Source: Escherichia coli (GTDB taxonomy: Bacteria > Pseudomonadota > Gammaproteobacteria > Enterobacterales > Enterobacteriaceae). From it: a stretch of 64,000 nucleotides of DNA. The position numbers are program-made. Numbering within the stretch: position 1 is the stretch's first letter; every line of letters begins with the position of its first letter. The DNA lies in assembly GCF_050920415.1 (NCBI RefSeq), contig NZ_CP169309.1. One strand, given 5' to 3'. Shown here in pieces: positions 6,201 through 9,200 of the stretch.

Positions 6201-9200
6201 AAGAATCGCAATGACCACCGGGGGTGATGCAATAAATGAAGCAACAATTATTTCTCGCCTGGGCCATCGCACAGCATTAATGAGTCGTATTGGTAAAGAT
6301 GCCGCCGGGCAATTTATTCTCGACCATTGTCGCAAAGAGAATATTGATATTCAAAGCCTGAAGCAGGACGTCAGCATAGATACCTCTATTAACGTTGGAC
6401 TGGTGACGGAGGATGGCGAGCGGACGTTTGTCACAAACCGTAACGGCAGTCTGTGGAAATTGAATATTGACGATGTTGATTTTTCGCGGTTTTCTCAGGC
6501 GAAATTATTATCTCTGGCCAGTATTTTCAACAGTCCTCTATTGGATGGTAAAGCGCTAACAGAAATTTTTACGCAAGCTAAAGCCCGGCAGATGATTATC
6601 TGTGCCGATATGATCAAACCGCGGTTGAATGAAACGCTGGATGATATTTGCGAAGCATTGAGTTATGTCGATTATCTGTTTCCTAATTTTGCCGAGGCAA
6701 AATTACTCACTGGGAAAGAGACACTGGATGAAATTGCTGACTGCTTTCTTGCGTGCGGCGTAAAAACGGTGGTGATTAAAACGGGTAAAGACGGCTGCTT
6801 TATCAAGCGTGGTGACATGACGATGAAGGTGCCGGCGGTCGCAGGAATAACCGCCATCGACACTATTGGCGCAGGCGATAACTTTGCTTCTGGCTTTATA
6901 GCGGCTCTGTTAGAAGACAAAAATCTGCGTGAATGCGCACGCTTTGCCAATGCAACGGCGGCTATCTCGGTTCTAAGCGTCGGTGCCACCACCGGTGTAA
7001 AAAACAGAAAGCTGGTCGAACAATTGCTGGAAGAATACGAAGGATAATGAAGGCAAATGAAAAAGATACCTTTAGGCACAACGGATATAACGCTTTCGCG
7101 AATGGGGTTGGGGACATGGGCCATTGGCGGCGGTCCTGCATGGAATGGCGATCTCGATCGGCAAATATGTATTGATACGATTCTTGAAGCCCATCGTTGC
7201 GGCATTAACCTGATTGATACTGCGCCAGGATATAACTTTGGCAATAGTGAGGTTATCGTCGGTCAGGCGTTAAAAAAACTGCCCCGTGAACAGGTTGTAG
7301 TAGAAACCAAATGCGGCATTGTCTGGGAACGAAAAGGGAGTTTATTCAACAAAGTTGGCGATCGGCAGTTGTATAAAAACCTTTCCCCGGAATCTATCCG
7401 CGAAGAGGTAGAAGCCAGCTTGCAACGTCTGGGTATTGATTACATCGATATCTACATGACGCACTGGCAGTCGGTGCCGCCATTTTTTACGCCGATAGCT
7501 GAAACTGTCGCAGTGCTCAATGAGTTAAAGGCCGAAGGGAAAATTCGCGCTATAGGCGCTGCTAACGTCGATGCTGACCATATCCGCGAGTATCTGCAAT
7601 ATGGTGAACTGGATATTATTCAGGCGAAATACAGTATCCTCGACCGGGCAATGGAAAGCGAACTGCTGCCGCTATGTCGTGATAATGGCATTGTGTTACA
7701 GGTTTATTCCCCGCTAGAGCAGGGATTGTTGACCGGTACCATCACTCGTGATTATGTTCCGGGCGGCGCTCGGGCAAATAAAGTCTGGTTCCAGCGTGAA
7801 AACATGCTGAAAGTGATTGATATGCTTGAACAGTGGCAGCCACTCTGTGCTCGTTATCAGTGCACAATTCCCACTCTGGCACTGGCGTGGATATTAAAAC
7901 AGAGTGATTTAATCTCCATTCTTAGTGGGGCTACTGCGCCGGAACAGGTACGTGAAAATGTCGCGGCACTGAATATCAACTTATCGGATGCAGACGCAAC
8001 ATTGATGAGGGAAATGGCAGAGGCTCTGGAGCGTTAAATACTCAACACGATTCACCTCTGTTTCTGTGAAAACTGTGATGAAAATCTGTGATTCAAACAG
8101 GTTATTTTGAAAGTAAACATCGGTTATGCGATAATCGCGCTAATGTGATGTAAAAAGATACAGGGGTGTAATCGTGGCGGCAAAAGACAGGATTCAGGCA
8201 ATTAAGCAAATGGTTGCCAACGATAAAAAGGTGACAGTCTCAAATTTGAGTGGGATTTTTCAGGTAACCGAAGAAACCATTCGCCGCGATCTTGAGAAGC
8301 TGGAAGATGAAGGCTTTTTGACCAGAACCTATGGTGGTGCTGTTTTAAATACAGCGATGTTGACGGAGAATATCCATTTTTATAAGCGCGCTTCATCGTT
8401 TTATGAAGAGAAGCAGCTTATTGCACGCAAGGCACTACCCTTTATCGACAATAAAACCACTATGGCAGCCGATTCCAGTAGTACCGTTATGGAATTGCTC
8501 AAATTGTTGCAGGACCGTAGTGACCTGACGTTGCTAACTAACTCGGCGGAAGCGATTCATGTTCTGGCTCAATCAGAAATTAAAGTCGTTTCAACGGGGG
8601 GGGAACTAAACAAAAATACACTTTCCCTGCAAGGAAGAATTACTAAAGAGATCATCAGCCGCTACCATGTCGATATCATGGTAATGAGTTGTAAAGGTCT
8701 TGATATTAACAGCGGCGCGCTGGACTCTAACGAAGCGGAAGCTGAAATCAAAAAGACAATGATCCGTCAGGCGACAGAAGTTGCGTTATTGGTTGATCAC
8801 TCTAAGTTTGATCGCAAAGCTTTTGTCCAGTTAGCTGACTTTAGTCATATTAATTACATAATAACTGATAAATCACCGGGTGCAGAGTGGATAGCATTTT
8901 GCAAAGACAATAATATCCAGCTGGTGTGGTAATTTAAGCACACGTTGTCAATATTATTTGTTCCTGCGCCTGGAAAATAAAATGATGATAAAGATGCGGC
9001 AAGTGAATTTGCCGCAATTGCTACCTTTTTAGCAAATCCGAGGCACCTAATGGAACAATATGATCAAATTGGCGCAAGACTGGACCGCTTGCCTTTGGCC
9101 CGGTTTCATTATCGTATATTTGGTATTATAAGCTTTAGTCTGTTATTAACGGGTTTTTTGAGTTATTCAGGCAATGTTGTTTTAGCAAAGCTGGTAAGCA

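What the first reader, a model, noticed from the sequence alone, without database searches (positions are those of the whole stretch)
8064..8091. Three CTGTGA direct repeats upstream of the DeoR regulator gene ydjF
The ydjG-ydjF intergenic region contains CTGTGA three times in direct orientation with 9-bp and 13-bp centre-to-centre spacing, about 85-110 bp upstream of the ydjF GTG start. DeoR-family regulators often bind tandem direct repeats, so this is a candidate autoregulatory operator. A CRP half-site reading (TGTGA) is an alternative.
Basis: seen in the sequence. Interest (0 to 1): 0.3.

Follow-up and report, generated by a model that had tools for sequence, protein, structure and literature searches.

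The report
Composite regulatory region upstream of ydjF
The three CTGTGA copies upstream of the E. coli regulator gene ydjF are real and non-random but are not three equal sites: only the copy next to the promoter belongs to a box conserved from E. coli to Clostridia, probably the binding site of YdjF itself, and the middle copy is an E. coli-only addition that forms a weak, already published CRP box.

Summary
CTGTGA lies at 8064, 8073 and 8086, spaced 9 and 13 bp, 83-110 nt before the ydjF GTG. Such a triple hexamer occurs in 0.14% of shuffles.

The three copies differ in conservation across 22 orthologous regions.
- Copy 3 is invariant. It sits in an 18-bp box, AAATCTGTGATTCAAACA (8082-8099), next to the -35 hexamer of the published ydjF promoter (TTGAAA-17-GATAAT).
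- Copy 1 reads CTGTGT outside E. coli.
- Copy 2 lies in a variable spacer and is specific to E. coli.

The same box sits at the same 22-nt distance from the -35 hexamer of the ydjL promoter. A matrix trained only on Enterobacterales finds it upstream of ydjF/ydjL orthologues in distant, mostly Firmicute clusters (p=1e-6), often overlapping their promoters. The best reading is that this box is the operator of the cluster's DeoR-family regulator YdjF. That is inferred; binding is untested.

Copy 2 plus the TCTGT of copy 3 form TGTGATGAAAATCTGT, the CRP box already listed from genomic SELEX. It is weak (8.15 bits), centred near -61, and absent from other genera.

In passing: the block ending in copy 1 is complementary to the ydjF ribosome-binding site in all Proteobacteria examined. 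It may act as an anti-Shine-Dalgarno element.

Overall this is an ordinary new member of a known kind.

The parts
8064..8069 (+). CTGTGA copy 1 (distal). It is CTGTGT in all non-E. coli orthologues. Its CTG is the 3' end of conserved block A.
8073..8078 (+). CTGTGA copy 2 (middle). It is specific to E. coli sensu stricto and lies in the variable spacer. Its TGTGA is the left half of the CRP-like 16-mer.
8086..8091 (+). CTGTGA copy 3 (proximal). It is nearly invariant across genera and is the left half of the conserved box.
8082..8099 (+). Conserved box AAATCTGTGATTCAAACA, the putative YdjF operator of the ydjF promoter. Its TCTGTG starts 22 nt upstream of the -35 hexamer.
   Evidence: It scores 27.0 bits with a matrix built without any E. 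coli site, the top hit of the 64-kb window. It is conserved in 22 orthologues and in Agarivorans and Pectobacterium.
8074..8089 (+). CRP-like 16-mer TGTGATGAAAATCTGT. Its centre at 8081.5 is about -60.5/-61.5 from the predicted transcription start.
   Evidence: It is the reverse complement of ACAGATTTTCATCACA in Table S3 of PMC3105977. It scores 8.15 bits with the CRP matrix, in the top 0.04% of window positions. It is absent from orthologues.
8107..8135 (+). Sigma-70 promoter of ydjF: -35 TTGAAA (8107-8112), 17-nt spacer, TG-extended -10 GATAAT (8130-8135). The transcription start is predicted near 8142.
   Evidence: Found by the scan. The same hexamers are printed for ydjF in the RpoD genomic SELEX table of PMC3946193. 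Conserved.
8046..8064 (+). Conserved block A, 5' arm (core CACCTCTGTTTC, 8053-8064). It is complementary to the ydjF Shine-Dalgarno and start region and is a candidate anti-SD.
8157..8176 (+). 3' arm: the Shine-Dalgarno region GATACAGGGGTG through the GTG start codon. It pairs with 8046-8064 in predicted RNA folds.
8174..8932 (+). ydjF, a DeoR/GlpR-family regulator (HTH_DeoR + DeoRC domains).
1602..1619 (+). Equivalent box TTATCTGTGTTTTAAAGA in the ydjL promoter. Its TCTGTG starts 22 nt upstream of the -35 hexamer TTGACC (1627-1632).
   Evidence: 23.6 bits, the second-best hit of the window. Footprint.
8144..8157 (+). Fourth, Escherichia-specific partial copy TGTGATGTAAAAAG, 11 of 14 identical to 8087-8100. 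It overlaps the predicted transcription start.

Best explanation
The triple CTGTGA is a composite of three elements of different age and probably different function.

(1) Proximal copy (8086-8091). It is the left half of a 15-18-bp, partly dyad-symmetric box, AAATCTGTGATTCAAACA (core TCTGTG-N3-CAnAnA), that abuts the -35 hexamer of the ydjF promoter. The same box sits at the same distance from the -35 hexamer of the ydjLKJIHG promoter, and it travels with the gene cluster across phyla. It is most likely the operator of the cluster's own DeoR-family regulator YdjF. YdjF bound there would occlude the -35/UP region and repress both ydjF (autoregulation) and ydjLKJIHG until the unknown sugar-acid-derived inducer releases it.

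(2) Middle copy (8073-8078). It arose by substitution in E. coli. Together with the TCTGT of the box it forms a weak CRP box at a class I position.

(3) Distal copy (8064-8069). It overlaps the end of a conserved block whose main constraint appears to be complementarity to the ydjF ribosome-binding site.

Shown here: sequence conservation, positions, cross-phylum co-occurrence, and the published promoter and CRP SELEX data. Inferred: that YdjF is the protein that binds the box, and that it acts as a repressor.
For: - The footprint over 22 orthologues shows block B (AAATCTGTGATTCAGACATGTTnTTTTGAAA) conserved, copy 2 unconserved, and copy 1 as CTGTGT.
- The ydjL promoter footprint carries ATCTGTGTTTTAAAGA. 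TCTGTG starts 22 nt before the -35 hexamer in both promoters (1605/1627 and 8085/8107).
- In an unbiased k-mer count over 16 regulatory regions, TGTGAT, TCTGTG and ATCTGTG rank at or near the top once A/T-only words are set aside (ATCTGTG in 7 of 16 regions, 0.23 occurrences expected in all).
- With a matrix built without E. coli sites, the two boxes score 27.0 and 23.6 bits. The next hit in 64 kb scores 16.6.
- In Agarivorans the three best hits in 16.7 kb are the ydjL and ydjF upstream boxes. In Pectobacterium the best hit is the ydjF box.
- In 12 distant, mostly Firmicute lineages (YdjF 51-65% identical to E. coli YdjF), the best hit upstream of ydjF/ydjL has a median of 9.5 bits. In 45 A+T-matched control upstream stretches the median is 2.7 bits (Mann-Whitney p=1e-6).
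- In those lineages the box often overlaps the spacer or -10 (L047, L082, L086, L095), which is a repressor geometry.
- The YdjF recognition helix VTEETIRRDLEK is invariant from E. coli to Clostridia.
- The ydjF promoter is bound by RNA polymerase alone in vitro (PMC3946193). PydjL is silent in LB and switches on in the mouse gut (PMC6561318). Both observations fit negative control.
Against: - No binding or expression data for YdjF exist in the searched literature.
- In Enterobacterales the box lies upstream of the -35 hexamer (about -60 to -43), which also fits an activator. FucR is a DeoR-family activator (from memory).
- Dyad symmetry is only partial (self-reverse-complement r about 0.5).
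- The enterobacterial sites share descent, so their conservation is not independent evidence.
- The A+T-rich matrix favours intergenic DNA, although the controls were matched for A+T content.
- The distant-lineage hits were chosen as the best per region.
- CRP binds the ydjL promoter in EMSA (PMC8085971), so part of the TGTGA-containing sequence could be read by CRP in E. coli.
Confidence: 0.6

Rival explanations
1. CRP reading. The TGTGA copies are CRP half-sites. cAMP-CRP binds TGTGATGAAAATCTGT (8074-8089), centred near -61, and activates PydjF as a class I site. This can hold in E. coli alongside the YdjF box. As the explanation of the conserved element it is a rival.
For: - The CRP genomic SELEX peak in the ydjG/ydjF spacer names exactly this 16-mer (PMC3105977 Table S3).
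- It scores 8.15 bits, within the range of 36 known sites (5.5-18.9), and is in the top 0.04% of the window.
- Its centre at 8081.5 is 60.5-61.5 nt from the start predicted from the -10 hexamer.
- CRP binds the ydjL promoter in EMSA and activates ydjLKJIHG in vivo (PMC8085971).
Against: - The right half is TCTGT rather than TCACA (2 of 5), and the score is well below the median known site (13.3).
- About 0.05 such sites are expected by chance in this spacer.
- No orthologue outside E. coli has it: E. whittamii 4.5 bits, Escherichia sp. 1.1 bits, other genera nothing at that place.
- The conserved box recurs in Clostridia, which (from general knowledge, not checked here) are not known to use an E. 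coli-type cAMP-CRP system.
- SELEX is an in vitro method, and no in vivo effect on ydjF is reported.
Confidence: 0.35
2. Three equivalent tandem CTGTGA half-sites are bound cooperatively by a YdjF oligomer.
For: - The triple is non-random and fixed in E. coli.
- ATCTGTG-type boxes occur as direct repeats 20-22 nt apart in several lineages: L048 ydjL 21 nt, L047 ydjL 20 nt, L086 ydjL 20-21 nt, and E. coli copies 1 and 3 at 22 nt.
Against: - Copy 2 is absent outside E. coli, and copy 1 is CTGTGT elsewhere. Copy 1 is lost in Symbiopectobacterium, Serratia, Pectobacterium and Agarivorans, while the proximal box persists.
- The 9- and 13-bp spacings put the copies on different helix faces.
- Copies 1 and 2 score under 5 bits and 8.6 bits on the box matrix, against 27.0.
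Confidence: 0.15
3. No function for the repetition itself. The E. coli triple is a by-product of neutral substitutions in a variable spacer next to two constrained elements.
For: The repeat region has the same length as in E. whittamii and differs by five substitutions. Two of these create TGTGA. The stretch is the fastest-evolving part of the spacer.
Against: - Probability 0.14% in shuffles.
- The middle copy coincides with a SELEX-derived CRP box at a canonical class I distance.
Confidence: 0.2

Closest known systems
Operators of DeoR/GlpR-family sugar-catabolism regulators of E. coli (DeoR, GlpR, AgaR, UlaR; recalled from the literature, not re-read here)
   Same: A locally encoded HTH_DeoR + DeoRC regulator. 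The same A+T-rich box with repeated half-sites occurs at the promoter of the regulator gene and at the promoter of the catabolic operon. The catabolic promoter is silent without substrate and is CRP-dependent.
   Different: The box sequence TCTGTG-N3-CAnAnA is not one of the described DeoR-family operators that I can recall. YdjF binding, oligomeric state and effector are unknown. In Enterobacterales the box lies just upstream of the -35 hexamer rather than over the core promoter.
Class I CRP-dependent promoters (lac type, site centred at -61.5)
   Same: A perfect TGTGA half-site, 6-bp spacer, centre about -61 from the predicted start, and in vitro selection by cAMP-CRP (PMC3105977).
   Different: The second half-site is TCTGT. 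The score is 8.15 bits against a median of 13.3 for known sites. The site is not conserved outside E. coli. The promoter already has near-consensus -35, extended -10 and 17-nt spacer, so it should not need an activator.
Anti-Shine-Dalgarno sequestration of a ribosome-binding site by an upstream complementary segment (as in translationally regulated leaders and RNA thermometers)
   Same: A pyrimidine-rich CCUCU-containing segment is perfectly complementary to the SD region. The predicted helix is stable and also covers the start codon in E. coli.
   Different: The two arms are about 105 nt apart, and the gene's own promoter lies between them. Only read-through transcripts from ydjG would carry the anti-SD. 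I cannot name a described example of this arrangement.

Membership tests
CRP binding site (class I) | Match to TGTGA-N6-TCACA at the level of known sites | tested here: inconclusive
   7 of 10 core positions match. It scores 8.15 bits with a matrix of 36 known sites (range 5.5-18.9, median 13.3). About 0.05 such hits are expected in the spacer.
CRP binding site (class I) | Centre near -61.5 (or -71.5, -82.5, -92.5) from the transcription start | tested here: met
   The centre at 8081.5 is 60.5-61.5 nt from the start predicted 7-8 nt after the -10 hexamer 8130-8135. The start itself is predicted, not mapped.
CRP binding site (class I) | Binding of cAMP-CRP | not testable with these tools
   Published genomic SELEX lists the spacer and this 16-mer (PMC3105977). 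No footprint or in vivo test for ydjF was found.
CRP binding site (class I) | Conservation of the site in orthologous promoters | tested here: not met
   E. whittamii 4.5 bits, Escherichia sp. E1V33 1.1 bits, and no site at that position in 19 other species.
Operator of a locally encoded DeoR-family regulator | An adjacent gene encodes an HTH_DeoR + DeoRC protein | tested here: met
   ydjF is annotated as DeoR/GlpR family. Its orthologues carry PF08220 + PF00455.
Operator of a locally encoded DeoR-family regulator | The same motif occurs at the promoters of the regulator gene and of the regulated operon | tested here: met
   Boxes at 8082-8099 and 1602-1619 each lie 22 nt from the -35 hexamer. 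They are the top two hits of 64 kb.
Operator of a locally encoded DeoR-family regulator | The motif co-occurs with the regulator in distant genomes | tested here: met
   In 12 distant lineages the median best hit is 9.5 bits, against 2.7 bits in A+T-matched controls (p=1e-6). The recognition helix is invariant.
Operator of a locally encoded DeoR-family regulator | Dyad or repeated half-site structure | tested here: inconclusive
   Partial 15-bp dyad (r about 0.5). It is a perfect palindrome in some lineages (Symbiopectobacterium ydjL ATCTGTGTTTTACAGAT; L104 TCTTTGTTTCAAAGA). Direct repeats 20-22 nt apart occur in others.
Operator of a locally encoded DeoR-family regulator | Binding by the regulator and release by an effector | not testable with these tools
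   No YdjF binding data were found in the searched literature.
Pho box (PhoB) | Two CTGTCAT direct repeats with an 11-bp period, replacing the -35 hexamer | tested here: not met
   The sequence is CTGTGA, the spacing is 9 and 13 bp, and the copies lie at about -78 to -51 upstream of a good -35 hexamer. The Pho box consensus is from memory.
Anti-Shine-Dalgarno RNA pairing | A conserved segment complementary to the SD or start codon | tested here: met
   A 12-bp core is paired in 21-23 of 23 sequences. Duplex energies are -17.7 to -29.4 kcal/mol, z -2.9 to -7.3, in 14 proteobacterial lineages. ydjF is the outlier among 31 genes of the window.
Anti-Shine-Dalgarno RNA pairing | Compensatory covariation | tested here: inconclusive
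   One flanking pair alternates between C-G (9 sequences) and U-A (4), with 10 unpaired. There is one C-G to U-A change in Pectobacterium. The covariation score is 0.126 against 0.112 in shuffles (32 of 500 as high). The partner-swap test gives p about 0.05.
Anti-Shine-Dalgarno RNA pairing | Both arms lie on one transcript | not testable with these tools
   No terminator-like site was found between ydjG and ydjF, so read-through is plausible but not shown.

The most novel reading that the evidence does not exclude
The conserved block that ends in CTGTGA copy 1 (8046-8064) may be an anti-Shine-Dalgarno arm placed upstream of ydjF's own promoter. Transcripts that read through from the induced ydjLKJIHG operon would fold into a roughly 130-nt hairpin that buries the ydjF SD and GTG. 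Transcripts started at PydjF, inside the loop, would lack the arm and be translated. Synthesis of the regulator would then be set by its own promoter and insulated from operon induction. Translation would in effect depend on which promoter made the transcript.
Probability: 0.35. Interest if true: 0.55.

Novelty: new member of a known kind. Interest (0 to 1): 0.3.

Why it matters
YdjF is still listed among the uncharacterised E. coli transcription factors (PMC4797297, PMC6055005). The ydj cluster encodes a partly solved sugar-acid pathway, and its promoter switches on in the mouse gut (PMC6561318).

A defined candidate operator is now available: an 18-bp box at two promoters, conserved across phyla. 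That gives a direct handle for EMSA or footprinting, for reporter design, and for screening the unknown inducer.

The work also shows that the published CRP box is a recent, E. coli-specific feature rather than the conserved control element.

None of this is surprising in kind. A local repressor plus CRP is the textbook layout for catabolic operons.

Tried and rejected
- Pho box: rejected on sequence and spacing (9 and 13 bp, not 11).
- Tandem duplication as the origin of the repeats: rejected. The E. coli and E. whittamii stretches have the same length and differ only by substitutions.
- Canonical CRP sites formed by copies 1 or 3: their partner half-sites score -1.0 and -0.4 bits.
- Known RNA family in the spacer: no Rfam match at E<=1.
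- A shared DNA-looping design with inverted boxes flanking both promoters. This was suggested because ydjL also shows upstream/SD complementarity in E. coli (z -3.2). It is rejected as a conserved feature, because the complementarity disappears in Citrobacter and Klebsiella (z +0.3 and +0.5, where the script stopped after three species).
- Anti-SD pairing in Firmicute clusters: not significant (z -1.6 to +1.1).
- Cra, IHF, CytR, ArcA and LexA readings of the conserved box: considered by eye only, with no convincing full-site match. They were not scored formally.
- Supplementary data of PMC8085971, which would give the predicted CRP site at ydjL: not held.
- The repeat finder did not report the imperfect inverted repeat.
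Full report
**Observation**

The window carries the E. coli ydj cluster on the + strand:

| Gene | Coordinates |
|---|---|
| ydjL | 1696-2772 |
| ydjK | 2799-4178 |
| ydjJ | 4195-5238 |
| ydjI | 5259-6095 |
| ydjH | 6079-7047 |
| ydjG | 7057-8037 |
| ydjF (GTG start) | 8174-8932 |
| ydjE | 9050-10408 |

The hexamer is rare: 15 copies in 64 kb on both strands, against 23.8 expected. A non-overlapping triple of any hexamer within 28 nt appears in 0.14% of dinucleotide-preserving shuffles of the 136-nt spacer, and at only two places in the real window.

**Promoter and published data**

The consensus scan finds a single promoter, TTGAAA-17-GATAAT, at 8107-8135, with TG before the -10 hexamer. 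The RpoD genomic SELEX paper prints exactly these hexamers for ydjF among promoters bound by holoenzyme alone (PMC3946193). The predicted start is near 8142, which puts the three copies at about -78 to -51.

Shimada et al. 2011 list ydjF as a CRP SELEX target. Their Table S3 gives the box ACAGATTTTCATCACA. This is the reverse complement of 8074-8089, that is, the TGTGA of copy 2, six bases, then the TCTGT of copy 3.

I built a CRP matrix from 36 previously known sites in that table. The 16-mer scores 8.15 bits. Known sites range from 5.5 to 18.9 bits with a median of 13.3, and the 16-mer is in the top 0.04% of window positions. As a check, the best hit in the window is the known msrB/gapA site at 465. 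The centre of the 16-mer is 60.5-61.5 nt from the predicted start, a class I position.

A later study reports CRP EMSA binding to the ydjL promoter and CRP-dependent expression of ydjLKJIHG (PMC8085971).

YdjF itself is listed as uncharacterised (PMC4797297, PMC6055005). I found no paper on its binding.

**Phylogenetic footprint of the ydjF promoter**

I aligned 22 orthologous ydjG-ydjF spacers from Escherichia, Citrobacter, Klebsiella, Raoultella, Budvicia, Yokenella, Intestinirhabdus, Symbiopectobacterium and Serratia. The alignment shows two conserved blocks separated by about 9 variable bases:

- Block A: ACCTCTGTTTCTGTGTAAAA.
- Block B: AAATCTGTGATTCAGACATGTTnTTTTGAAAATAAACAT, which runs into the -35 hexamer.

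The three copies fare differently:

- Copy 3 is nearly invariant and lies in block B.
- Copy 1 is CTGTGT in every non-E. coli sequence.
- Copy 2 lies in the variable stretch (CTATGA or CGATGA in the sister Escherichia species).

The CRP-like 16-mer drops to 4.5 and 1.1 bits in the sister Escherichia species and is absent elsewhere. Within E. coli the region is nearly invariant: 4,329 of 5,426 complete genomes carry it. One strain has a 12-bp deletion that removes one copy.

The repeat stretch has the same length as in E. whittamii and differs by five substitutions. It therefore arose by point mutation, not duplication.

**The same box at the ydjL promoter**

Nine orthologous ydjL upstream regions are unalignable until a sharp onset of conservation at TATTTGTGATCTGAG...TGCAGATCAATATCTGTGTTTTAAAGATTTnATG-TTGACC. 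In both promoters TCTGTG begins exactly 22 nt before the -35 hexamer (1605/1627 and 8085/8107).

I built an 18-mer matrix from non-E. coli sites only. It scores 27.0 bits at 8082-8099 and 23.6 bits at 1602-1619. The next hit in 64 kb scores 16.6 bits. On the same matrix the copy 2 region scores 8.6 bits and copy 1 less than 5 bits.

**Distant clusters**

The whole ydjLKJIHGF cluster is syntenic in four distant organisms:

| Organism | YdjF identity to E. coli |
|---|---|
| Pectobacterium | 76% |
| Agarivorans | 71% |
| Caproiciproducens | 63% |
| Anaerostipes | 59% |

The box recurs there.

- In Agarivorans the three best hits in 16.7 kb are the two ydjL boxes and the ydjF box.
- In Pectobacterium the best hit is the ydjF box.
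- In Anaerostipes the ydjL promoter has ATCTGTGAAAAATTAATGAATATCTGTAAAACGGACAT, two boxes 21 nt apart. It also has an inverted box, TTTTCTGTGAGTCAAACA, over the -35 hexamer.
- In Caproiciproducens the ydjF promoter reads AAATCTGTGTTTATGTGGTATAAT, with the box inside the spacer.

An unbiased k-mer count over 16 regulatory regions ranks TGTGAT, TCTGTG and ATCTGTG at or near the top once A/T-only words are set aside.

A metagenome scan added further lineages. I took 12 distant lineages (YdjF 51-65% identical to E. coli YdjF) in which cluster genes are adjacent. With a matrix trained on Enterobacterales only and an A+T-rich background, the results were:

- Best hit in the 200 nt upstream of ydjF/ydjL: median 9.5 bits.
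- Best hit in 45 other upstream stretches of the same loci with A+T at least 0.66: median 2.7 bits.
- Mann-Whitney p=1e-6.
- 11 of 19 target regions exceeded the control 90th percentile.

Examples are ATTTCTGCGTTTCAAAGA, ATTTCTGTGTTTCAATGA and TTTTCTTTGTTTCAAAGA.

The pooled consensus is TCTGTG(T/A)TT(C/T)A(A/G)A(G/C)A. It is a partial 15-bp dyad, with self-reverse-complement r about 0.5. It is a perfect palindrome in some lineages.

The YdjF recognition helix VTEETIRRDLEK is invariant in all these proteins. Much of it is a family-wide signature, so this is consistent with the model but not discriminating.

**Interpretation**

A cis-element that keeps its sequence and its promoter-relative position at two promoters of one cluster, and that moves with the cluster between Proteobacteria and Clostridia, is most simply the target of the one regulator that moves with it, YdjF. 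From general knowledge (not checked here), Clostridia are not known to use an E. coli-type cAMP-CRP system, so CRP is an unlikely reader of the conserved box.

Three observations point to repression:

- Both E. coli promoters are near-consensus.
- PydjF binds RNA polymerase alone in vitro, and PydjL is silent in LB but on in the gut (PMC6561318).
- In Firmicutes the box overlaps core promoter elements.

In Enterobacterales the box lies just upstream of the -35 hexamer, so activation is not excluded.

The middle copy is a lineage-specific gain. It produces a weak CRP box at a class I distance, overlapping the YdjF box. Its in vitro selection is published, and its in vivo role is untested.

**Noticed in passing: an anti-Shine-Dalgarno arm**

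The 5' part of block A (E. coli CACCTCTGTTTC, 8053-8064) is the reverse complement of the ydjF SD region. That region is GAAACAGAGGTG in most species and GATACAGGGGTG (8158-8169) in E. coli.

As RNA, 8040-8190 folds at -44.8 kcal/mol (z -4.3). The fold has a helix pairing 8046-8064 with 8157-8176, which includes the GTG. The same long-range helix appears in the minimum-energy folds of six other species and in the alignment fold.

Duplex energies between the upstream arm and the SD/start region are -17.7 to -29.4 kcal/mol (z -2.9 to -7.3) in 14 proteobacterial lineages. Among 31 genes of this window with an upstream gap of at least 100 nt, ydjF is the extreme outlier: z -6.2, against a median of 0.0.

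Covariation is modest:

- The 12 core pairs hold in 21-23 of 23 sequences.
- One flanking pair alternates between C-G (9 sequences) and U-A (4).
- Pectobacterium shows one C-G to U-A exchange.
- Serratia and Pectobacterium extend the helix on the other side (GUUUACC:GGUAAAC in Serratia, GUUUGCC:GGGUAAAC in Pectobacterium).
- The partner-swap test gives p about 0.05. The covariation score is reached or exceeded in 32 of 500 shuffles.

The pairing is not significant in the Firmicute clusters. The weaker ydjL complementarity is E. coli-only.

No terminator-like site separates ydjG and ydjF, and the ydjF promoter lies inside the loop. The arrangement could therefore silence translation of ydjF on read-through operon transcripts while leaving PydjF transcripts translatable. 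This is a hypothesis (probability about 0.35). It would also explain why the sequence just 5' of copy 1 is so conserved.

**Verdict**

The feature is real. The kind is ordinary: a local DeoR-family operator plus a weak CRP box. The CRP box and the promoter are already in the literature. The candidate YdjF box and the anti-SD arrangement are, as far as the searched literature shows, undescribed.

Noticed in passing
window 8046-8064 paired with 8157-8176: The conserved block upstream of the ydjF promoter is complementary to the ydjF Shine-Dalgarno and GTG region (E. coli fold z -4.3; duplex z -2.9 to -7.3 in 14 proteobacterial lineages). The gene's own promoter lies inside the loop. This is a possible anti-SD that silences ydjF translation on read-through transcripts.
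   Followed up: yes
window 8147-8166: TGATGTAAAAAGATACAGGG is the reverse complement of CCCTGTATCTTTTTACATCA. That sequence is proposed as a degenerate LexA box for an unconventional LexA ChIP-chip target at ydjF (PMC3542263). It lies between the -10 hexamer and the SD, and it overlaps the 3' arm of the hairpin.
   Followed up: partly
window 8144-8157: A fourth, Escherichia-specific copy, TGTGATGTAAAAAG, is 11 of 14 identical to the right part of the box. It sits at the predicted transcription start and could be an extra operator half. It is not conserved in other genera.
   Followed up: partly
window 1605-1614 and 1676-1685: TCTGTGTTTT in the ydjL box has a perfect 10-nt inverted copy, AAAACACAGA, next to the ydjL SD (duplex z about -3). 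It is E. coli-specific and absent in Citrobacter and Klebsiella.
   Followed up: partly
window 1574-1601: The conserved distal part of the ydjL footprint is TTGTGATCTGAG...CGCAGATCA, an inverted GATCTG/CAGATC pair 12 nt apart. It is a likely second operator, or the non-canonical CRP site behind the published EMSA. Its best CRP scores are only 2.4 and 6.0 bits.
   Followed up: partly
L046, L047, L048 (between ydjL and ydjK orthologues): The cluster is syntenic from E. coli to Clostridia. Pectobacterium and the Firmicute versions carry an extra ribulose-phosphate 3-epimerase gene after ydjL that E. coli lacks. In some lineages ydjF precedes ydjL or is divergent (L082, L086/L087). This suggests horizontal transfer of the whole unit.
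   Followed up: no
window 7000-9100 compared with E. coli genomes: 1,097 of 5,426 complete E. coli genomes lack the ydjG-ydjF region. In one genome it lies on a plasmid.
   Followed up: no
L041 (E. coli LZYWN_4), equivalent to window 8067-8078: A natural 12-bp deletion removes one CTGTGA copy and with it the CRP-like 16-mer. It is a ready-made variant for testing.
   Followed up: partly
window 2001-2018: TTTTCTGTGTTGTACAGA inside ydjL scores 13.4 bits on the box matrix and is identical at +305 in Agarivorans and Pectobacterium. It encodes the conserved DFLCCTEK motif, so the match is probably a coding constraint.
   Followed up: no
window 465-480: TGTGATTTTCATCACG is the best CRP matrix hit of the window (16.8 bits). 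It corresponds to the msrB/gapA CRP box in Table S3 of PMC3105977 and served as a positive control.
   Followed up: no
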